This document shows, in pieces, positions 3,104 through 10,643 of a stretch of DNA of 34,584 nucleotides. The stretch comes from a virus. Taxonomy: Duplodnaviria > Heunggongvirae > Uroviricota > Caudoviricetes. Location of the stretch: the IMG/VR virus record IMGVR_UViG_2734482772_000010. One strand, written 5' to 3'. Position 1 is the stretch's first letter. Every line of letters begins with the position of its first letter. The notes beneath the pieces are model-generated. The model made no database searches, was not told the DNA's origin, and worked only from the letters and a program-made list of their open reading frames with translations. The position numbers and the translations under genes were made by a program.

Positions 3104-4254
3104 TTTTTCTTCTCCTTAATCACCGTCGATGTACTGCCATCCGGGTGATAAACCGTGAGTTTCTGAGTTTTTTGTTTTTTCCCTCTTGTGACTGGCCCCC
3201 GTGCCACTTCCAGCTCTGTGGTGTAGCCGCTGTTACGCTCAAACGCATGGCGGGCAGTGATTATCAGCCATGGACCGGATAACTGTCCAAAGCCCACCAG
3301 TTCAATTTTGTTGCCTGCTGTCAGTTGAGGCATTCCCGTCAGCGTCAGGGAGCCGTTCTGCTGGTATTCGTTATGTCTGGCCAGTGCTGAATCCGCTTTA
3401 ATCCGGGCACTGTCCGGGTCGCTGACGCGGCTGTTAACTTTAAGTGAGTCAGCGCTGGTAACCTTACCGCCTTTGAGCTTTTTGTCGCTTTCACGGGTAC
3501 CACCATCAGCTTCGTAGACGATCAGTTTTTTACTGCTGCTTTTCTGGTGTTTTACCTTTGCAGATTTATAGACCCGGTTGATGGTGTCACGCAGGGAAAA
3601 GCAGGCCACATCCTGCGGTTTTAACTGCCTGACCGGCTCCTGACTGCGCAGTGTGGCCAGATGAGAAAAAATCAACTGGTCACTGACCACTTTCACTGCA
3701 TAACCATACTCGCTGGCCAGCCGGCGCAGAAAACCCACGTCGGTTTCAGCATACTGGGTCACCCGGTCGATTCTGATGGACTCAATGCTGCCCACCAGTT
3801 TCAGCCGGTGCTTTCTGGCAATCCGCCCCGCAACAGCTGCCAGCGTGGTGTTCTCAAAACCACGGCTGGATTTAGTCCGCAGAGCACTGTTAACCGAGGT
3901 GGCCACCCCACGGATAGCGACAACGGACGCGGGCGAACTCACTTCGATCTCGTCTATTGAGAATGTACCGCAGGACAGCAGTTTCTCGCCCTGATAACCC
4001 ATTTTCAGCGTCAGCGTGTCACCCTTGCCCGGATACCACTTATCCAGCCAGCGGCCATCGGTGTCGTCCAGCTCCACCTCAATGGTATCGGACTCATTTT
4101 TGATGTTATCGCTCCAGACCACACGGGTGACATAAGGCGCGATATCAGAGGTGATGTTTTTCTGCAGATACCACAGAGTGAATACCGGCGTCAGCACATC
4201 GCTGACGCCGGTTAACGCTGATGTGGCTTGCGCAGTACTGTTTATCTCAGCCAT
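3100..4254 (-). CDS. tail protein, P2 gpD-like (late control D / Mu P-like baseplate hub)
   Basis: 384-aa ORF following gpX-like and gpU-like genes, the conserved X-D-V order of P2/Mu-type tails. Confidence 0.65.
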   Translation of the reverse strand: MAEINSTAQATSALTGVSDVLTPVFTLWYLQKNITSDIAPYVTRVVWSDNIKNESDTIEVELDDTDGRWLDKWYPGKGDTLTLKMGYQGEKLLSCGTFSIDEIEVSSPASVVAIRGVATSVNSALRTKSSRGFENTTLAAVAGRIARKHRLKLVGSIESIRIDRVTQYAETDVGFLRRLASEYGYAVKVVSDQLIFSHLATLRSQEPVRQLKPQDVACFSLRDTINRVYKSAKVKHQKSSSKKLIVYEADGGTRESDKKLKGGKVTSADSLKVNSRVSDPDSARIKADSALARHNEYQQNGSLTLTGMPQLTAGNKIELVGFGQLSGPWLIITARHAFERNSGYTTELEVARGPVTRGKKQKTQKLTVYHPDGSTSTVIKEKKK

Positions 4255-4457: not shown

Positions 4458-5338
4458 ACACTCCTCGTCAGTATTCTGGCGGCCATTGCACTTAATCCCG
4501 GAGACATGCGGTTGAATGCTGTGCCGGCGGCGTTAAGCTGCCCGGAAACGGTATCCAGAGCACCTGCAATATTTCTTTTGTCCACACCACTCAGCGCCGA
4601 CTGCGCCTGCTGTACATACGTGGCTGCCTCACTGGCTGTTCTGGCCAGACTGATGGCATCGGGCATGGATTCAGAGAGTGCATTAAACGCCGGAACACTT
4701 TTCCCCAGAGCTCCGGATATATTACCCAGTCCGCTCATCAGTCCCGGCACACGGGTCAGCGCGACAACGGGGTTACCCTTCATTTTCTGCGCCACCCGAA
4801 CGGCACTGATAGTGGTCTGGAGTACAGACTGCGCCTGTTTCGCATAGTTGACGCCGTTACGGACGAACTGCGCCACCCCGGAAGGCGATGGAACAGCACC
4901 AGATACGGCCCCGGCACCGGGAACCTGCCTGCGTATTGCCGGCGGTTGCAGAGGATTTTTCGGGTCACCGGTGTATTCCCGGAGAGACACGGTGGCACTG
5001 ACAGCCAGCACGTTACCGGTGCTGTCTGTCTGCTCGCTGGTTGCGGTCACATCGGTAATCACGAACCAGCCGCGATAGTCACCGTTGCCGAAGACCAGCG
5101 CCAGTGCCTGATGGGCCTTCATGGCTGTTCGCACTCTCGCCAGCTCCACGTCGGGCACACAATAATGCTGATGGAAGACCAGGCTTATCTGGATTTCGTC
5201 CAGCCTGTCGCCGACGAACTGCAGGCCGGGTTTACCCTCGATGCGGGCATGCTCCGCATAATCGACGCCGGACGTGGCCTCGAAGCCGTCCCAGTAGGTA
5301 ATCAGTTCAAACTCAATATCACCCAGTACGGCAAACAT
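4454..5338 (-). CDS. tail protein with P2 gpU-like N-terminal domain (Mu N / DNA circularisation protein-like)
   Basis: 294-aa ORF; N-terminal ~130 aa (MFAVLGDIEFELITYWDGFE...) resembles gpU-family tail proteins; Ala/Ser/Gly-rich C-terminal extension; directly downstream of tape measure gene. Confidence 0.55.
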   Translation of the reverse strand: MFAVLGDIEFELITYWDGFEATSGVDYAEHARIEGKPGLQFVGDRLDEIQISLVFHQHYCVPDVELARVRTAMKAHQALALVFGNGDYRGWFVITDVTATSEQTDSTGNVLAVSATVSLREYTGDPKNPLQPPAIRRQVPGAGAVSGAVPSPSGVAQFVRNGVNYAKQAQSVLQTTISAVRVAQKMKGNPVVALTRVPGLMSGLGNISGALGKSVPAFNALSESMPDAISLARTASEAATYVQQAQSALSGVDKRNIAGALDTVSGQLNAAGTAFNRMSPGLSAMAARILTRSV

Positions 5339-7803
5339 CAGCTGTACTCCTTACGTTGTTTCTGAGCCAGCAGACGCTCCAGCATTTTTTCCAGCTCATG
5401 CAGGCTCATATTCAGGGCACCAGTCAGCCCGGCAGGCGCTGCGGTTTCCTTACCATTGAGAAAAAACTGAGGATTAAAGCTGACCTGGATACCGCCAGAC
5501 GCTCCACCGCCGGTTGCAGTTGCGCCACGGCCTGAATATCCGGCAGCCATGATTTCCGGCGACGGGATACGGGGAACATCCGGTGTCATTTCAGCGGCCA
5601 GGCGCTGCCCGGCCAGTGCAGCAAGCGGAGTGGTCCGTTGCAGGCCAATGGCGGCACCCTGCGCGATATTGTCACCAAAGCCCATAAACACGCGACTCGG
5701 TGAATGGATGCCCAGCTTTTCGCTGAACCAGTCACTGATGCTGTCACCCATTCCGGTTACGCTGGTTTTGAGTGACTCCCATTTGTTTCTGATGCCATTT
5801 ATCAGCCCGTCAATAAGATGTCCACCGAAGTCGGTGAATTTCGCCGGCAGATCAACGCCGAGATATTTCAGCGCAGCCGCAAAGGCTTTATAAAGCAGAC
5901 CAGCCGGAGACCAGTTAACCAGCAGTTTACCAATTCCCGCGATGCCGCCGTTAAAGGCTTCCTGAATGTCAGCCCAGCGCTGTTTAAACCAGCTACTGAC
6001 AGCGCCCCAGTTGCGGTAGATAAGGTAAGCTGCTGCCGCGACGGCGGTGATAACGAGACCGACGGGATTCATCAGCAGCGCCCGGCCAATCCAGAGAACG
6101 GCACGCCCGGCGCTCATAATTCCGCGAACCAGCCCCCCTGAGAGCACACCCCCCAGTGTTCTGGCTCCTCTGGCGACGGCACCAAAGCCTGTCACCAGCC
6201 AGCGGAGTTTACCGCCTTCCCCCAGTGCGAGCATCAGACGAAGCCAGTTGGCCCGAAGTAAAACAGCATTTTTCCAGACGCTTACAAAGGGGGAAATAAG
6301 GAGATTCAGCCCAAGCTTGAGACCGATAGTGGCCATCCTGAAAGCGAGTAATGCGCCCACAACCTTTATGGTGCTGCTGACGAGCTGCGGATTTGCCGCT
6401 ATCCATTTGCCGACGCTGTCCATTAAAGGAATAAATGTTTCACCCAACTGGAGCAAAGCCGGACGCAAGGATTGCCCGATGCTGATAGCAGAATCATTAA
6501 AGCCGATCTGCATTCTGCGCCAGCGACCTTCAAGCGTATCATTCTGCTTTGCAGCATCCTTATCCAGGGTAGACATTGCAGCCGGAGCATTCATTTCCTG
6601 CTTACTGGAAAGGTATTTATCCCAGCCCTGTCGCATTGACAGTAAATGGTTGACAGTCTGAATATCGGTAAAGACCTCAGCCAGACCAAATGACTCCATG
6701 AGTTTCTGCTGACCTTCCTGATCGCCTCTTGCTCCTGCAGCTTTCCATTGCTGCAAAAACGCTTTGCCTTTACTGTCGATAAAACGGTTGGCAATCATCA
6801 GTGAAGCTTCGTACTGCGAAAAACCCTGAGCGACGTAATTCTGCATTGACCCCTGGTAATCCACCCCGGCTTTAGCATATTTCTGGATGGTATCTCCGCG
6901 GCCCATTGCTGCCAGCCAGTTGGACATATTGGTGACCGCTTCCTCTGCAGAGCCACTACCTTTACCGACCTCCAGACTGGCAACAATCTGGGTAATCGCA
7001 TCTTTTCCATAAATACCACGAGCAGCGAAGGCTTTAGCCATACCGGGTAATGCTTTTGCCATATCCTTCAGCTCAAATGACCCAAGTTTGGCTCCTGTTG
7101 CCGCAATACCAAATGCCTGTTCAAGTTCTTTCGCATCAGTGATTCTGAGTGCATCGCTGAAGGCATAAGTCATTTTGGCAAGGTCGGTCATATCGGCTTT
7201 GGTTGCTGTAGCGGTCTTTCCAAGCATCTCTGCAAACGTTGCTGCCCGTTCGGGGGCCATACCATCAGCAACTAATTGTCCGACTCCCCCTAACAGAGAC
7301 TCCTGCAGTTGGTTAACCTTCAGCGAGGCCTGTCTGATAGCCAGGCCAATTGCACGTTCCTGTTTTGCATCCAGGTCTCCTGTGACACTGATATCCCGTA
7401 ACTGTGATTCAAACGAGGCATATTGTTTAACCGAGGCCATGACCGGTGCGCCCAGCGTTCTGCCAATAGCATAGGTTTCTGCACCCTGACCATAGAGCGC
7501 CAGGCGGTTAGCCTTCAACGCATCACCGGTGGCTGATACTGCTGACAGACGGCGCTGCTGACGTTCAATTTGCTCCATGGTGCGGCTTACCCGCAGCAAC
7601 TCGCTGTTGAGATGCTGCATCCGGGAAGAACCCAGTTGACCATAACGTTCTGTTGCCCGGGTTAAGGCATTCTGGCGTTCCTGCAGACGGCGGGAGGTAT
7701 CACCAAGGGAATCAAGGGCGCGTCGGGTGCCACTGACGGCTGAGCGGAAGCTGCTCCCGACAATGCCGCCAATAATGACGCCGACTGAAAATTCACTGGC
7801 CAC
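5338..7803 (-). CDS. tail tape measure protein
   Basis: 821-aa ORF, largest tail gene, between chaperone pair and gpU-like gene; Ala/Gly-rich with internal hydrophobic segments. Confidence 0.8.
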   Translation of the reverse strand: MASEFSVGVIIGGIVGSSFRSAVSGTRRALDSLGDTSRRLQERQNALTRATERYGQLGSSRMQHLNSELLRVSRTMEQIERQQRRLSAVSATGDALKANRLALYGQGAETYAIGRTLGAPVMASVKQYASFESQLRDISVTGDLDAKQERAIGLAIRQASLKVNQLQESLLGGVGQLVADGMAPERAATFAEMLGKTATATKADMTDLAKMTYAFSDALRITDAKELEQAFGIAATGAKLGSFELKDMAKALPGMAKAFAARGIYGKDAITQIVASLEVGKGSGSAEEAVTNMSNWLAAMGRGDTIQKYAKAGVDYQGSMQNYVAQGFSQYEASLMIANRFIDSKGKAFLQQWKAAGARGDQEGQQKLMESFGLAEVFTDIQTVNHLLSMRQGWDKYLSSKQEMNAPAAMSTLDKDAAKQNDTLEGRWRRMQIGFNDSAISIGQSLRPALLQLGETFIPLMDSVGKWIAANPQLVSSTIKVVGALLAFRMATIGLKLGLNLLISPFVSVWKNAVLLRANWLRLMLALGEGGKLRWLVTGFGAVARGARTLGGVLSGGLVRGIMSAGRAVLWIGRALLMNPVGLVITAVAAAAYLIYRNWGAVSSWFKQRWADIQEAFNGGIAGIGKLLVNWSPAGLLYKAFAAALKYLGVDLPAKFTDFGGHLIDGLINGIRNKWESLKTSVTGMGDSISDWFSEKLGIHSPSRVFMGFGDNIAQGAAIGLQRTTPLAALAGQRLAAEMTPDVPRIPSPEIMAAGYSGRGATATGGGASGGIQVSFNPQFFLNGKETAAPAGLTGALNMSLHELEKMLERLLAQKQRKEYS

Positions 7804-7895
7804 GGTGGCTATCCTCTGAAAGCAAAAAAACGGAAGGGAAGTGTCTGAACCCCATGCAGAACAGCCGCGACTGGCGGCTGTTAAGTGATACGTTG

Positions 7896-8153
7896 TTACT
7901 GATTGTCGCCGAACTCGCTTTTGATTTGCTCTTCAGCCTGCTCCAGCCACATCTCCAGATCGTCAGTATCGAGGGCATCAATCTCCCCCGGCTGAAACCT
8001 GAACCATCTCGCCAGCAGGCCCTGCGCCTGCATCAGTGTTTTTGTCGCTCTTGCCCAGCCCAGTGATTTTCTGAAATCGTTTCTGCAGCTCCATATAGTC
8101 GGCAAGATCCATGTTATCGAGGTCTTCCGGGAGGATACCGGTGCTACGGGCAA
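7896..8153 (-). CDS. frameshift-extended C-terminal part of tail assembly chaperone (candidate +1/-2 fusion)
   Basis: Second ORF overlaps the 3' 176 nt of the chaperone ORF in the +1 frame and ends 90 nt before the tape measure start; A5 tract GACAAAAACAC in the overlap. Confidence 0.4.
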   Translation of the reverse strand: MPVAPVSSRKTSITWILPTIWSCRNDFRKSLGWARATKTLMQAQGLLARWFRFQPGEIDALDTDDLEMWLEQAEEQIKSEFGDNQ

Positions 8154-8313
8154 TCAGTGGTTCGTCCCAGTCTGCCGGGTCTTTGTTGATTTTGCGCACC
8201 TGCTTCAGGTCTTTTACTGTCAGGCGTTTCAGTTCAATCTGTTCAATTCTGGTACCTGCAGCAGTGGTGAAAGGATAAGACAGCGTAAAAGTATCGGACT
8301 GGGTCTGTGACAT
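7978..8313 (-). CDS. tail assembly chaperone (short form)
   Basis: ORF-track ORF 7978..8319; second ATG at 8313 (MSQTQ...) sits ~7 nt downstream of an AAGGAG Shine-Dalgarno; immediately upstream of tape measure gene. Confidence 0.6.
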   Translation of the reverse strand: MSQTQSDTFTLSYPFTTAAGTRIEQIELKRLTVKDLKQVRKINKDPADWDEPLIARSTGILPEDLDNMDLADYMELQKRFQKITGLGKSDKNTDAGAGPAGEMVQVSAGGD

Positions 8314-8365
8314 GATCATACTCCTTTGTAAATTCAGAGCAGTATGTCTGGCGGTGGACGTGACG

Positions 8366-8388: not shown

Positions 8389-8404
8389 AGGGGCCGGAGC
8401 CCCT
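8381..8404 (-). terminator. candidate intrinsic terminator after the 93-aa ORF
   Basis: Minus-strand hairpin AGGGGC-UCCG-GCCCCU followed by U-rich UCUUCUU. Confidence 0.4.
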
Positions 8405-8410
8405 GTGATG

Positions 8411-8692
8411 TCAGCAAGTGCGAAAACCCTTGCAGTTACGCAGGAAAGCGATGAGAAGCGCCTTTCCCTCAGATTTGCCGATGCCGGAGAACCAGTGGTC
8501 GGGCGGCTCCCATGCTTCAATCAAATCGGCCAGTTTGCGGGCCTTTGAACGTGTGCAGTCAATCGGGTCATTGGTTTTACGGGTATTAAAAAGGGTTTCC
8601 ACCCCCGGAATATCAAGGAGGGTAAACCACGTACCATTTGACATGCCCAGTGACGCACATCGCCCTCCTTTGTCAGTCAGTTCAACACTCAC
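8411..8692 (-). CDS. hypothetical protein (93 aa) between tail tube and chaperone genes
   Basis: ORF-track ORF; tightly packed after tube gene; followed by its own hairpin; no family recognised. Confidence 0.4.
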   Translation of the reverse strand: MSVELTDKGGRCASLGMSNGTWFTLLDIPGVETLFNTRKTNDPIDCTRSKARKLADLIEAWEPPDHWFSGIGKSEGKALLIAFLRNCKGFRTC

Positions 8693-8694
8693 CG

Positions 8695-9216
8695 TCAGCC
8701 CCCGATATTGATCCGATAGTCAGTCAGTTGATCAACGCCACCGACGCGGAAGATGTTGGCCAGATAGTCCAGTTGCAGCAACTCTTCACCATCCAGTACC
8801 TGTCTGATATACGTGCAGGTGAAGCTACTGGAGAACTCGGCGTTCTCGTGCTGTTTAAACGTCCCCAGCGGATTCTTCTTGAACATAATTGTCAGGAAGG
8901 TGACCAGCGGGATTTCGTCGATCAGCCCCTGCGAGCTGTAGCGCTGGACGCTGGAGCGACACTGCAGCGCCAGCGACTTGTACGGGTTCGCGGCAGACAG
9001 CATCGCATCGCGGTAAAAGCTGTTCCATTTGATTTCGCCTTCCAGTTTGTCAAAACCAGCCGGGAGTTCCACCTTACCCACCATCCCCAGGGCCTTGTGT
9101 TCCTGCATAATCATGGAGACATCGGGGAGTTTAACCTCCTCAGCCCGTCCCAGCAGGTTAGTGCCATCCAGATAGATGTTGGCATTCGTGATTCGGTTTA
9201 TCTCAATCTTTGACAT
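8695..9216 (-). CDS. tail tube protein
   Basis: 173-aa ORF directly downstream of the sheath gene (stop/start overlap). Confidence 0.7.
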   Translation of the reverse strand: MSKIEINRITNANIYLDGTNLLGRAEEVKLPDVSMIMQEHKALGMVGKVELPAGFDKLEGEIKWNSFYRDAMLSAANPYKSLALQCRSSVQRYSSQGLIDEIPLVTFLTIMFKKNPLGTFKQHENAEFSSSFTCTYIRQVLDGEELLQLDYLANIFRVGGVDQLTDYRINIGG

Positions 9217-10643
9217 CAGTTGCCCCCTTTCAGGGTTAACAGGTATTCCGAGGTGATCTCAGTCTCAAACGTCAGTCGCTCCAGCGGCGGTGGTGGCGTA
9301 TATTTGTAGCTCAGCAACAGGTGCCCGGCGGCCAGCTCCGTTTCCGGATTGCGGGCCGGATCAAACCAGCAACGGAAGCCCAGTACCGCGCCATCACCAG
9401 TCATTTTGCGACCGTAGGCGTTGACCGACTCCGTCAGTGCATCAATCAGCGCCTGAGTAATCGGCATGTCGATGTACTGCTGGCTGAAGTAACGAATGGA
9501 CTCATTGATCACATCACCGGTGCGGCGAACGTTCTCAAAGTTACGCATATGGGTGACCGTTGGCCATGCTGCCGTCCGGTTACCCCACAGACGAAGGCCG
9601 CTGCCGTAACTGCTGAATACCGTGGTGATCCCCTGTTCGTTAAGCAGGTTCACCTCGCTCTGCGGATCGTCAATCATTGCCGACAGCTGGCGCTCCACGC
9701 CGGAGATCCCCAGAATTTCCTGATTGGAGGATGACCACCAGTACCCTTTGTCCAGGTCGACTCTGGCACGCAGGCCCGCCGCACGCTGGCTCAGTGGCTC
9801 CAGACGCTCCGTGTTCGTCACCGGGTCATATACCTTCACATGCGGGTAGCACAGGCGGACACGGTCAGAGCTGGTATTAAAGTTAATGGTGCCTTCCGGG
9901 CCACGTCCCGCCAGAGCCTGCGCAAAAGTGGTACCAACCGGCGCATCAATATAGGTTACTGCTCCCAGTTTCTCAGCCATGGCGATAAGCTCAACCGAGA
10001 CGCTGTTCTGGGTGCAGAATACCGGAGCAATCAGGATTTTGGCGAAGTAGCCAAACAGGTTAAAACTGTCGTTAAGTAGCTTCATGCCGGTACGGTTGCC
10101 TGCAGCGTTAACGGTACCGATGATATCAGCCGGGGTGACTTTGGTCGGATCAGCATAGTTATAGCTGGCCTTCACCGTTGCATCTGCAGCAATGCTTTTA
10201 CCCAGGTTAGTAATCACCCCGGTCTGTGCATCAAGCGAGTAGTCCTGACCTTCAACATAAGGCTGACCGTCGCTGTCCGGTTTCAGTACCAGCTGCGCGA
10301 CCACCGGATTAGCCAGCCGGGCTCTGCCTGTCGCCTTGTCGAACGACACATTCTCACTGACCACAGCGGTTTTATGCACAGACGGATCGAGTACGTTAAT
10401 GACCAGAACGGTGCCTGCACCATGGTCATAAATCGCATCCAGCGCCTGCGGAATGGTAAAGCCGGTGAACTGGCTGCCAAATGCCGCAGCGTCTTTCGCA
10501 GACAGGCACTGTACCAGCGTATTGACATCCCCCATCGGGGCGGTACCAATCAGGCCAATAACGGCAGATTTCACCGTTTTAACCGGGCGGGCTCCGTTTT
10601 CCACCTCAATGGTTTCGACGCCATGCAGATAGTTAGCTGCCAT
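9216..10643 (-). CDS. contractile tail sheath protein
   Basis: 475-aa ORF; size, position before tube gene and sequence character typical of Mu L / P2 FI sheath proteins. Confidence 0.85.
   Translation of the reverse strand: MAANYLHGVETIEVENGARPVKTVKSAVIGLIGTAPMGDVNTLVQCLSAKDAAAFGSQFTGFTIPQALDAIYDHGAGTVLVINVLDPSVHKTAVVSENVSFDKATGRARLANPVVAQLVLKPDSDGQPYVEGQDYSLDAQTGVITNLGKSIAADATVKASYNYADPTKVTPADIIGTVNAAGNRTGMKLLNDSFNLFGYFAKILIAPVFCTQNSVSVELIAMAEKLGAVTYIDAPVGTTFAQALAGRGPEGTINFNTSSDRVRLCYPHVKVYDPVTNTERLEPLSQRAAGLRARVDLDKGYWWSSSNQEILGISGVERQLSAMIDDPQSEVNLLNEQGITTVFSSYGSGLRLWGNRTAAWPTVTHMRNFENVRRTGDVINESIRYFSQQYIDMPITQALIDALTESVNAYGRKMTGDGAVLGFRCWFDPARNPETELAAGHLLLSYKYTPPPPLERLTFETEITSEYLLTLKGGN

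What the first reader, a model, noticed from the sequence alone, without database searches (positions are those of the whole stretch)
7896..8319. Tail assembly chaperone pair with a +1-frame (not -1) overlap
The extension ORF overlaps the 3' end of the chaperone ORF in the +1 frame; the -1 frame is closed by a stop. An A5 tract (GACAAAAACAC, about 8036-8046 on the plus strand) in the overlap would let tRNA-Lys re-pair one nucleotide forward (AAA to AAA). Most tail chaperone frameshifts are -1, so a +1/-2 event here would be less common.
Basis: seen in the sequence. Interest (0 to 1): 0.4.

Follow-up and report, generated by a model that had tools for sequence, protein, structure and literature searches.

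The report
Conserved +1 frameshift site in tail chaperone

Summary
The ORF geometry is real. A Phage_TAC_7 chaperone gene (7978-8319, minus strand) lies between the tail tube and tape-measure genes. It is overlapped in the +1 frame by an ORF open from 8153 to 7896, whose C-terminus resembles P2 E' (GpE).

The proposed A5 slip site (8046-8036) is not supported. It occurs in only 8 of 61 distinct close relatives. In some relatives it lies at or beyond the frame-0 stop. Wobble-position variation has already moved to the +1 frame upstream of it.

In 181 distinct homologues with +1 geometry (Entero-, Burkholderia-, Pseudomonas- and Ralstonia-type hosts), the possible shift window narrows to -8 to +21 nt around one Phe codon. 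That codon is TTT in 181/181 and is followed by C in 180 (T in one). The preceding codon is the rare CGA in 132/181; most of the rest, including BcepMu and phiE255, have NCC or GTG followed by TTT_CGN.

The best reading is a programmed +1 slip of tRNA-Phe from UUU to UUC at 8076-8073, giving a 140-aa fusion protein.

Alternative-frame tail-chaperone frameshifts are already known (Mu -2; a likely +1 in an archaeal virus). I found no description of this site in a phage. No experiment supports it yet.

The parts
7978..8319 (-). Tail assembly chaperone ORF (113 aa), the equivalent of lambda G, P2 E and Mu gp41. Only residues 1-82 appear to be under frame-0 selection.
   Evidence: ORF listing. Pfam PF10109 Phage_TAC_7, E = 1.5e-22, residues 10-84. 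phrog_166 tail protein, E = 1.7e-32. Wobble entropy peaks at frame-0 position 3 only upstream of 8080.
8073..8079 (-). Proposed +1 frameshift site CGA_UUU_C (Arg81, Phe82, then C). tRNA-Phe re-pairs from UUU (8076-8074) to UUC (8075-8073).
   Evidence: TTT in 181/181 and the next base C in 180/181 distinct +1-geometry loci; CGA precedes it in 132/181. In the first 80 loci R81 is CGA in 76/77 and F82 is TTT in 80/80, while other conserved Arg and Phe codons vary synonymously. CGATTTC is identical in all 61 distinct close relatives. TTTC is the main invariant block in the 14-sequence alignment of distant members.
7896..8072 (-). The +1-frame segment translated after the shift: 58 codons (RKSLGWARATKTLMQAQGLLARWFRFQPGEIDALDTDDLEMWLEQAEEQIKSEFGDNQ) plus the TAA stop. 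The predicted fusion is complement(join(8074..8319, 7896..8072)), 140 aa.
   Evidence: Frame translation. Wobble entropy peaks at frame-0 position 1, which is +1-frame position 3, from 8070 to 7899. The fusion products of distant homologues are conserved from the first codons after the site.
7917..8015 (-). GpE / P2 E'-like domain of the extension (fusion residues 102-134).
   Evidence: Pfam PF06528 Phage_P2_GpE, E = 0.0032, 17.4 bits, below the gathering cut-off of 23. hhalign of the extension profile against P2 E': E = 7.6e-6, probability 84%. phrog_8286, E = 1e-31. RefSeq names the 45-aa ORF 'GpE family phage tail protein'.
8055..8057 (-). Invariant +1-frame Trp codon, 6th codon after the shift. 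It lies upstream of any conserved start codon.
   Evidence: W6 is invariant in the alignment of extensions from 10 divergent loci. In 31 loci only 3 +1-frame codons, none a start codon, lie between the upstream +1-frame stop and TTT_C.
8036..8046 (-). It is not the conserved shift site.
   Evidence: Present in 8 of 61 distinct relatives; replaced by a stop codon in L048/L049. It lies downstream of the frame switch.
7984..7991 (-). CC_GGG_GGA G-run, which resembles the Mu -2 site CGG_GGG_CGA. It lies inside the E' domain (codons QPGE) and is not the shift site.
   Evidence: Many relatives have the frame-0 stop upstream of it (GTT TAG at the position of 8001-7999). The Mu sequence is shown.
8031..8033 (-). 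The ATG that RefSeq uses to start a free-standing 45-aa 'GpE family' ORF. It is not conserved.
   Evidence: ATG in 35 of 61 distinct relatives; otherwise ACG 18, ACA 4, ATT 3, AAA 1. Annotation.
5338..7803 (-). Tape measure protein gene (context, immediately downstream).
   Evidence: Pfam PF10145 and phrog_28.
8695..9216 (-). Tail tube gene (context, upstream). The sheath gene is at 9216-10643.
   Evidence: Pfam PF04985, E = 2.1e-53; PF04984 and PF17482 for the sheath.

Best explanation
The window is a BcepMu-like (Mu-like, contractile-tail) E. coli prophage. Between the tail tube and tape-measure genes it encodes a tail assembly chaperone of the P2 E / Mu gp41 family.

Most ribosomes translate the 113-aa frame-0 protein. 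A minority shift +1 at CGA_UUU_C (8079-8073, minus strand). With tRNA-Phe (anticodon GAA) in the P site on UUU, the tRNA re-pairs one base forward on UUC, where G34 pairs with C instead of wobbling with U. Translation then continues in the +1 frame from AGA (8072-8070) to TAA (7898-7896). The product is a 140-aa fusion: chaperone residues 1-82, a short linker with an invariant Trp, and a P2 E'-like C-terminal domain.

By analogy with lambda gpG/gpGT and P2 E/E+E', the two proteins share the part that binds the tape measure. The rarer fusion adds the part that recruits the tube protein, and the shift efficiency sets their ratio.

The rare CGA codon before UUU is probably a stimulator, acting from the E site or, while still in the P site, through its weak I:A wobble pair.

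Shown here: the geometry, the homology of both parts, the position of the frame switch, and nucleotide-level conservation of the site.

Inferred: that the event is ribosomal, that its direction is +1 rather than -2, its efficiency, and its role in tail assembly.
For: 1. Synteny and homology. The order is tube, chaperone, TMP. PF10109 E = 1.5e-22. The extension matches phrog_8286 and P2 E'.

2. Geometry is conserved. The E' domain is in the +1 frame in 114 of 121 loci in the first set and 116 of 118 in the second, including BcepMu, phiE255, Ralstonia, Pseudomonas and Salmonella phages or prophages.

3. The shift window is narrow. The +1 frame opens as late as -8 nt, and frame 0 stops as early as +21 nt, relative to the TTT codon. 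Some loci have only a 29-nt overlap.

4. The site is conserved at the nucleotide level. TTT_C occurs in 180/181 and TTT_T in 1/181. The following frame-0 codon varies in meaning (Gln, Leu, Arg, His), yet its first base is C in 180 of 181.

5. Synonymous-codon contrast. F17 is TTC 56 / TTT 18 and R32 is CGC 59 / CGT 15 / CGG 3 / CGA 3, but F82 is TTT 80/80 and R81 is CGA 76/77. TTT is kept even in loci where TTC dominates locally, with a TTT fraction of 0.06-0.25.

6. Frame switch. Mean entropy at frame-0 codon positions 1/2/3 is 0.25/0.07/0.79 for 8153-8080 and 0.57/0.16/0.23 for 8070-7981. The sliding-window maximum changes position between 8080 and 8068.

7. No independent start. ATG 8033 is not conserved. 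In 31 loci no start codon lies between the upstream +1-frame stop and the site, yet a conserved Trp follows it.

8. Precedent. UUU_C P-site +1 slippage with a conserved E-site codon is demonstrated for influenza PA-X (UCC_UUU_CGU), and that paper predicted a wider class of such sites (PMC3498833). BcepMu itself has TCC_TTT_CGC. CGA can substitute for GCG as the P-site codon of the yeast Ty3 +1 site (PMC5009743). Phage tail chaperones are known to use -1, -2 or +1 (PMC5009743).
Against: - There is no experimental evidence: no junction peptide and no reporter assay.
- The frame-0 A-site codon in this window (CAG) is a common E. coli codon. The slow A-site decoding that helps most +1 sites is therefore not evident.
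- No conserved upstream Shine-Dalgarno-like element or downstream RNA structure was found, so the efficiency may be low and the stimulators are unclear.
- The 181 loci are phylogenetically related, so the counts overstate independent support.
- The preceding codon differs between subgroups (CGA versus NCC or GTG), so its role is uncertain.
- Xu et al. 2004 and Summer et al. 2004 could not be read, so prior description of this site cannot be excluded.
Confidence: 0.8

Rival explanations
1. The same site and the same product, but by a Ty3-like mechanism. While tRNA-Arg(ICG) sits on CGA in the P site with a weak I:A wobble pair, the incoming Phe-tRNA binds the +1-frame UUC directly instead of UUU. 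No P-site tRNA slips.
For: CGA is kept against synonymous drift: 76/77 and 132/181. CGA is among the few codons that can replace GCG at the yeast Ty3 +1 site, and I:A apposition is linked to frameshifting at IS1222; B. subtilis cdd shifts -1 at CGA_AAG (PMC5009743). The A-site codon after UUU is not rare, which weakens the classical 'pause then slip' picture.
Against: About a quarter of the loci (BcepMu, phiE255 and Pseudomonas types) have TCC, GCC, ACC or GTG instead of CGA but keep TTT_C. CGA therefore cannot be the essential element for the family as a whole. The PA-X precedent for UCC_UUU_CGU is P-site slippage.
Confidence: 0.15
2. One reading: tRNA-Lys slips +1 on the A5 tract (GAC_AAA_AAC, 8046-8038), giving ...GLGKSDK-TLMQAQ...
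For: The tract exists, and AAA to AAA re-pairing is possible. It lies inside this phage's own overlap. One database protein (P0001) has exactly this junction, most likely from a 1-nt deletion in the A run.
Against: The tract is present in only 8 of 61 distinct close relatives and is replaced by a stop codon in L048/L049. +1-frame selection and an invariant Trp begin upstream of it. Distant homologues lack it altogether. P0001-type fusions occur at different homopolymer runs (A5, GGG, G5) in different records, mostly from read-archive assemblies. That pattern points to indels or sequencing errors, not a recoding site.
Confidence: 0.04
3. There is no recoding. The E'-like peptide is translated independently from ATG 8033 as a 45-aa protein, as RefSeq annotates it.
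For: An ATG is present in this window, and PGAP calls a 45-aa 'GpE family phage tail protein' here.
Against: The ATG is replaced by ACG, ACA, ATT or AAA in 26 of 61 distinct relatives. No Shine-Dalgarno motif precedes it (the sequence is GACAAAAACACTGATG). +1-frame conservation extends 13 codons upstream of it. In 31 loci there is no start codon upstream of the conserved Trp. In P2 the homologous E' is made only as a frameshift fusion (record annotation).
Confidence: 0.04
4. A Mu-like -2 shift on a G-run (CC_GGG_GGA, 7991-7984), or another -2 event.
For: Mu gp41 has the same +1/-2 geometry with CGG_GGG_CGA. Mu is reported to use -2 (PMC5009743; PMC2628397). This window contains a G5 run.
Against: The G5 run encodes the conserved QPGE of the E' domain and lies downstream of the frame-0 stop in most relatives. 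At CGA_UUU_C a -2 move would place tRNA-Phe on GAU, which it cannot pair with (read directly from the sequence).
Confidence: 0.02

Closest known systems
P2 gpE / gpE+E' (and lambda gpG/gpGT) tail assembly chaperone frameshift
   Same: It holds the same genomic slot between the tube and tape-measure genes and belongs to the same protein family (Phage_TAC_7 plus a GpE-like extension). The logic is the same: a short product and a longer fusion share an N-terminus. The shift site falls within about 3 codons of the P2 site in the protein alignment.
   Different: P2 and lambda shift -1 on X_XXY_YYZ heptamers (T_TTT_TTG and G_GGA_AAG). Relatives with -1 geometry in this family use G_GGT_TTT or G_GGA_AAG. 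Here the extension is in the +1 frame and the conserved signal is a tetranucleotide, UUU_C, with no heptamer.
Phage Mu gp41 -2 frameshift
   Same: The extension lies in the +1/-2 frame of a chaperone in the same tail-gene slot of a transposable myophage. It is the recognised exception to the -1 rule.
   Different: The Mu site is a G-run (CGG_GGG_CGA) about 7 codons before the stop and is reported as -2. Here the G-run look-alike is not the site. The conserved site is UUU_C, about 32 codons before this phage's frame-0 stop, and -2 re-pairing is impossible there. Similarity between the Mu extension and this family is weak (hhalign E = 0.024).
Influenza A PA-X +1 frameshift (UCC_UUU_CGU); the related sites proposed for amalgaviruses, chronic bee paralysis virus and Lake Sinai viruses
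   Same: It is an internal +1 site with a UUU_C P-site tetranucleotide, a conserved preceding (E-site) codon and no stop codon. No conserved RNA structure was found here either. The BcepMu subgroup has TCC/GCC/ACC_TTT_CGC, nearly the influenza sequence.
   Different: Those are eukaryotic RNA viruses translated on 80S ribosomes, whereas this is a bacterial system. In this window the flanking codons are CGA and CAG rather than UCC and the rare CGU. The function here is tail assembly stoichiometry.
E. coli prfB (RF2) +1 frameshift, CUU_UGA_C
   Same: A bacterial +1 P-site slip onto a codon read by the same tRNA, with reported E-site codon effects.
   Different: [quoted passage not shown] Neither is present or conserved here.

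Membership tests
Tail assembly chaperone with programmed frameshift (lambda G/GT, P2 E/E+E', Mu gp41 class) | Located between the major tail (tube) gene and the tape-measure gene | tested here: met
   Tube 8695-9216, chaperone 7978-8319, TMP 5338-7803, all on the minus strand. One extra small ORF (8411-8692) intervenes.
Tail assembly chaperone with programmed frameshift (lambda G/GT, P2 E/E+E', Mu gp41 class) | The upstream ORF belongs to a tail assembly chaperone family | tested here: met
   PF10109 Phage_TAC_7, E = 1.5e-22, 79.8 bits against a cut-off of 25.
Tail assembly chaperone with programmed frameshift (lambda G/GT, P2 E/E+E', Mu gp41 class) | An overlapping alternative-frame ORF encodes a conserved extension and has no conserved start of its own | tested here: met
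   The +1 ORF matches phrog_8286 and P2 E'. ATG 8033 is not conserved. No start codon is possible in 31 loci.
Tail assembly chaperone with programmed frameshift (lambda G/GT, P2 E/E+E', Mu gp41 class) | A slip-prone sequence is conserved inside the overlap | tested here: met
   TTT_C in 180/181 and TTT_T in 1/181, within a shift window of -8 to +21 nt.
Tail assembly chaperone with programmed frameshift (lambda G/GT, P2 E/E+E', Mu gp41 class) | The fusion protein is actually produced at a set ratio and is required for tail assembly | not testable with these tools
   Needs MS, reporter assays and phage genetics.
Canonical -1 PRF (X_XXY_YYZ heptamer) | The extension is in the -1 frame, with a heptamer in the overlap | tested here: not met
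   The E' domain is in the +1 frame. There is no heptamer in 8084-8052. The -1 frame shows no coding signal.
Mu-type -2 frameshift on a G-run | A G-run within the shift window that allows -2 re-pairing | tested here: not met
   The G5 run at 7991-7984 is downstream of the frame switch and of the frame-0 stops in relatives.
UUU_C +1 P-site slippage class (influenza PA-X type) | An in-frame UUU followed by C, conserved at the 5' end of the +1-frame coding region | tested here: met
   The frame switch maps to it.
UUU_C +1 P-site slippage class (influenza PA-X type) | The preceding (E-site) codon is conserved beyond the needs of the amino acid | tested here: met
   CGA in 76/77 Arg at this column, against CGC/CGT elsewhere. 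The other subgroup uses TCC, GCC, ACC or GTG.
UUU_C +1 P-site slippage class (influenza PA-X type) | A slowly decoded or rare frame-0 A-site codon (CGU in PA-X) | tested here: not met
   The window has CAG. The family has CAG, CTG, CAA, or CGC/CGG in the BcepMu subgroup. That CAG and CUG are common E. coli codons is established knowledge.
UUU_C +1 P-site slippage class (influenza PA-X type) | The junction peptide shows Phe followed by +1-frame residues | not testable with these tools
   Requires mass spectrometry.
prfB-type +1 frameshift | [quoted passage not shown] | tested here: not met
   The A-site codon is a sense codon. The upstream 21 nt vary among relatives and contain no conserved SD.
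Transcriptional slippage | A long homopolymer run (about 7 or more A or T) in the overlap | tested here: not met
   The longest runs in the overlap are 5 nt (the A5 tract at 8044-8040 and the G5 run at 7989-7985); A5 is not conserved and G5 lies beyond the frame-0 stop of many relatives, and the conserved T-run is only 3 nt.

The most novel reading that the evidence does not exclude
CGA_UUU_C, together with its sister form NCC_UUU_CGN, would be a previously unrecognised class of internal +1 frameshift signal in bacteria. It has no stop codon, and no Shine-Dalgarno element or RNA structure was found. It is conserved across a large clade of Mu-like (Bcepmuvirus-type) phages of Beta- and Gammaproteobacteria, and is mechanistically equivalent to the influenza PA-X and amalgavirus signal. 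The I:A-wobble codon CGA would act as a tunable stimulator. One protein family would then have evolved -1, -2 and +1 solutions at nearly the same position.
Probability: 0.45. Interest if true: 0.65.

Novelty: new variant of a known kind. Interest (0 to 1): 0.5.

Why it matters
**Recoding biology.** Internal +1 frameshift sites are described as notoriously hard to spot (PMC5009743). The well-understood bacterial example I know of (prfB; from memory) depends on a stop codon. A UUU_C site conserved in 181 distinct phage loci would extend the influenza PA-X type of signal to bacterial ribosomes. E. coli would offer an easy genetic system to test how the codons flanking UUU, especially the I:A-decoded CGA, tune +1 slippage.

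**Annotation.** Current records handle this gene pair in three ways:
- RefSeq either omits the extension or calls it a free 45-aa protein.
- The BcepMu record assigns the slippage to a different ORF pair.
- PRFect-type predictors correctly predicted none of the 481 forward (+1) frameshifts in the RECODE test set (PMC10274946).

A site rule for this family would allow the fusion CDS to be annotated in hundreds of prophages. About 12% of complete E. coli genomes carry this region (637 of 5426).

**Evolution.** The Phage_TAC_7/GpE family would show -1, -2 and +1 recoding all serving the same assembly function.

Tried and rejected
- **A5 tract as the site.** Rejected: it is not conserved, it lies downstream of the frame switch, and a frame-0 stop replaces it in L048/L049.
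- **A4 run at 8070-8067 (CAG_AAA_ATC).** It is present in only 11 of 61 distinct relatives.
- **G5 run as a Mu-like -2 site.** Rejected.
- **-1 extension (open from 8032 to 7793).** No conservation or periodicity.
- **Independent initiation at ATG 8033.** Rejected.
- **Stimulatory RNA structure downstream.** The single-sequence fold has z = -1.55, and RNAalifold on 14 divergent sequences gave 0 pairs.
- **Upstream Shine-Dalgarno-like stimulator.** The upstream 21 nt are variable.
- **Natural in-frame fusions as support.** A search of the protein database with the predicted fusion found 138-aa 'fusions', but their junctions sit at different homopolymer runs (A5, GGG, G5). This pattern fits indels or sequencing errors, so I did not use them as evidence. 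The same applies to L077 and L105.
- **NCBIfam.** No hits for any of the three small proteins.
- **First genome contigs attempt.** It failed because the alignment was too divergent. It was repeated with a closer set.
- **Literature.** Searches for CGA_UUU_C or UUU_C in phage tail genes, and for BcepMu or phiE255 frameshifts, found no description of this site. Xu et al. 2004 is not held in the library, and Summer et al. 2004 was not retrieved.
Full report
**What is in the window.** Coordinates 7896-8319 lie in a tail-gene block on the minus strand. The block holds:
- the sheath gene (9216-10643; PF04984 and PF17482);
- the tube gene (8695-9216; PF04985, E = 2.1e-53);
- a small DUF7739-like ORF (8411-8692);
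- a 113-aa ORF (7978-8319) matching Pfam Phage_TAC_7, 'tail assembly chaperone proteins E, or 41 or 14' (E = 1.5e-22);
- the tape-measure gene (5338-7803).

The closest phage records are Klebsiella phage KP12 and Escherichia phages PhiKM and Phi06_2974 B, at 87-90% identity. PhiKM is classified in Bcepmuvirus. More distant matches are to BcepMu and phiE255. The region occurs in 637 of 5426 complete E. coli genomes. The window is therefore a BcepMu-like, Mu-type prophage.

**Checking the observation.**
- The +1 frame relative to the chaperone ORF is open from 8153 to a TAA at 7898-7896 and overlaps the chaperone by 176 nt.
- GACAAAAACAC is at 8046-8036, on the coding (minus) strand.
- The -1 frame has three stops in the overlap. 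It is then open from 8032 for 80 codons to 7793, so 'closed' is only partly right.
- The -1 frame runs through the intergenic region into the tape-measure gene start. Its length is erratic in relatives, and it shows no codon periodicity.

**The +1 ORF is real coding sequence.**
- Its last roughly 50 residues match phrog_8286 (E = 1e-31).
- RefSeq names a 45-aa version of it 'GpE family phage tail protein'.
- Pfam Phage_P2_GpE hits it below threshold (E = 0.0032).
- A profile of ten divergent extensions aligns to P2 E' (hhalign E = 7.6e-6, probability 84%).

In P2, E' exists only as the -1 frameshift fusion E+E' (record annotation).

**The geometry is a family trait.** I collected homologous loci from IMG/VR, GTDB genomes and GenBank phages. 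In each I located the chaperone domain and the E' domain with HMMs.
- E' is in the +1 frame in 114 of 121 loci in the first set and 116 of 118 in the second.
- These include BcepMu, phiE255, a Ralstonia phage, a Pseudomonas phage and a Salmonella prophage.
- P2, a Vibrio phage, a Pasteurella phage and a Volucribacter prophage have E' in the -1 frame. Their overlaps contain classical heptamers: T_TTT_TTG, G_GGT_TTT and G_GGA_AAG.
- Mu has the +1/-2 geometry with CGG_GGG_CGA. The literature reports a -2 shift there (PMC2628397; PMC5009743).
- The same review states that tailed phages use -1, -2 or +1 for this gene pair, and that a haloarchaeal myovirus very likely uses +1.

**Where the shift happens.** Four lines of evidence agree.

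1. *Movable stops.* In many close relatives frame 0 ends 21 nt earlier than here (GTT TAG, where the window has GTT CAG). In L048/L049 it ends at the position of the window's AAA codon, inside the A5 tract. In distant relatives the +1 frame opens only 8 nt before one particular Phe codon, and frame 0 can stop 21 nt after it. Several loci have a 29-nt overlap in total.

2. *Codon periodicity.* Among 59 distinct close relatives, positional entropy peaks at frame-0 position 3 from 8319 down to 8080. In the part of the overlap upstream of 8080 the values are 0.25/0.07/0.79. From 8070 onward it peaks at frame-0 position 1, which is the +1-frame wobble position (0.57/0.16/0.23). The switch falls between 8080 and 8068.

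3. *Nucleotide-level conservation.*
   - The Phe codon aligned to F82 (8076-8074) is TTT in 181 of 181 distinct +1-geometry loci.
   - The next base is C in 180 and T in one, although the codon it starts encodes Gln, Leu, Arg or His.
   - Elsewhere in the same alignment, conserved residues drift synonymously. F17 is TTC 56 / TTT 18, and R32 is CGC 59 / CGT 15 / CGG 3 / CGA 3.
   - By contrast, R81 is CGA in 76 of 77 and F82 is TTT in 80 of 80.
   - TTT is retained even in GC-rich loci where TTC makes up 75-94% of local Phe codons.

4. *Protein conservation in the +1 frame starts immediately after the site.* A Trp 1 to 6 codons downstream (8057-8055 in the window) is invariant across clades that share about 30-58% identity in the extension.

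**The A5 tract fails each of these tests.**
- It occurs in 8 of 61 distinct close relatives.
- It lies 30 nt downstream of the frame switch.
- Substitutions within it are silent in the +1 frame and non-silent in frame 0.

The G5 run at 7991-7984 looks like the Mu site. However, it encodes the conserved QPGE of the E' domain and lies beyond the frame-0 stop of many relatives.

**Independent translation of E' is unlikely.**
- ATG 8033 is replaced in 26 of 61 distinct relatives.
- It has no Shine-Dalgarno motif.
- In 31 loci there is no start codon between the upstream +1-frame stop and the conserved Trp.

**Mechanism.** The only conserved element in the permitted window is (CGA_)UUU_C.
- tRNA-Phe (anticodon GAA) reads both UUU and UUC and pairs better with UUC. 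A P-site +1 slip from UUU to UUC is the simplest reading.
- A -2 move from this codon would land on GAU, which tRNA-Phe cannot pair with.
- This is the mechanism established for influenza PA-X (UCC_UUU_CGU). There the preceding codon is also conserved beyond coding need, and mutating it lowers shifting by 40-70%. The authors predicted a broader class of UUU_C sites with restricted flanking codons (PMC3498833).
- The BcepMu subgroup carries TCC/GCC/ACC_TTT_CGC or GTG_TTT_CGG, almost the influenza motif. The enterobacterial and most betaproteobacterial loci carry CGA_TTT_CAG or CGA_TTT_CTG.
- CGA is a rare E. coli codon, at 3.8 per thousand (Table 1 of PMC3498833). It is read through an I:A wobble pair.
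- The recoding review notes that CGA is one of the few codons able to replace GCG in the P site of the Ty3 +1 site, and that I:A apposition is associated with other frameshifts (PMC5009743).
- A Ty3-like variant is therefore a live sub-hypothesis for the CGA subgroup: out-of-frame binding of Phe-tRNA while CGA is in the P site. It yields the same protein.
- I found no conserved downstream structure and no conserved upstream Shine-Dalgarno-like element. The frame-0 A-site codon is common. The shift is therefore probably inefficient, which fits the need for a minor fusion product; lambda's ratio is about 30:1 (PMC5009743).

**Predicted product.** The CDS is complement(join(8074..8319, 7896..8072)), giving 140 aa...DLADYMELQKRF|RKSLGWARATKTLMQAQGLLARWFRFQPGEIDALDTDDLEMWLEQAEEQIKSEFGDNQ. 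It scores slightly better against Phage_TAC_7 than the frame-0 protein does (85 versus 79.8 bits). The frame-0 tail after residue 82 (QKITGLGKSDKNTDAGAGPAGEMVQVSAGGD) varies in length (91-113 aa) and shows little frame-0 constraint.

**What I could not establish.**
- Nothing here shows that the fusion is made.
- A protein-database search with the predicted fusion found 138-aa 'fusions'. Their junctions sit at different homopolymer runs (A5, GGG, G5), which points to indels or read errors, so they are not evidence. L077 and L105 are similar cases.
- The loci are phylogenetically related, so the counts are not independent observations. The internal contrast with other synonymous sites is the fairer measure.
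- I could not read Xu et al. 2004 or Summer et al. 2004. The held literature contains no description of a UUU_C site in a phage tail gene, but absence from this library is not proof of novelty.

**Verdict.**
- The feature is a member of the known tail-chaperone frameshift system and is homologous to P2 E/E+E'. It uses a +1 UUU_C signal that appears not to have been described for phages and that mirrors the influenza PA-X signal.
- I rate it a new variant of a known kind, of moderate interest.

Noticed in passing
window 8411-8692 (-) and 8389-8404 (-): A 93-aa ORF (sub-threshold DUF7739 match, 25.7 bits against a cut-off of 27; phrog_1239, function unknown) sits between the tube and chaperone genes. 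It is followed by a GC-rich terminator-like hairpin (AGGGGCTCCGGCCCCT plus a T-rich tail). BcepMu, phiE255 and the Salmonella prophage L085 have no gene in this slot. It looks like a moron-type insertion inside the tail operon.
   Followed up: no
window 7860-7882 (-): A perfect 9-bp hairpin (AACAGCCGC-CAGTC-GCGGCTGTT) lies in the 92-nt gap between the extension's stop (7896) and the tape-measure start (GTG 7803). It is not directly followed by a T-run; a T7 run comes about 30 nt later. Function unknown (read).
   Followed up: no
L003 (BcepMu NC_005882) 2119-2880: The BcepMu GenBank record labels gp42 as the lambda-G analogue and gp43 as its slippage product. By homology, gp41 is the chaperone (Phage_TAC_7-like) and gp42 is the +1-frame E'-like extension, joined at TCC_TTT_CGC. 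gp43 is probably not part of the pair.
   Followed up: partly
L105 (Apirhabdus apintestini CP138906.1) and L077 (IMG/VR 2734481909_000003): Two loci have the chaperone and E' in one frame. L105 has a 1-nt deletion 12 nt upstream of CGA_TTT_C (CTGGAGCTG becomes CTGG-GCTG), which fuses the frames almost at the natural shift site. L077 has a deletion next to the G5 run. These are either real fusion-only or defective prophages, or assembly errors.
   Followed up: partly
L082 (E. coli NZ_CP155528.1) and other RefSeq E. coli genomes: PGAP annotation of identical DNA is inconsistent. Some genomes list a separate 45-aa 'GpE family phage tail protein', and most list only 'phage tail assembly protein'. 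None annotates a frameshift fusion.
   Followed up: no
L083 (phage Mu NC_000929) 3392-3397: In Mu gp41 a Phe-Gln pair (DDFQRL) resembling the KRFQ motif uses TTC_CAG, not TTT_C. This fits Mu having moved its shift site to the downstream G-run. The alignment of Mu to this family is too weak to be sure the residues are homologous.
   Followed up: no
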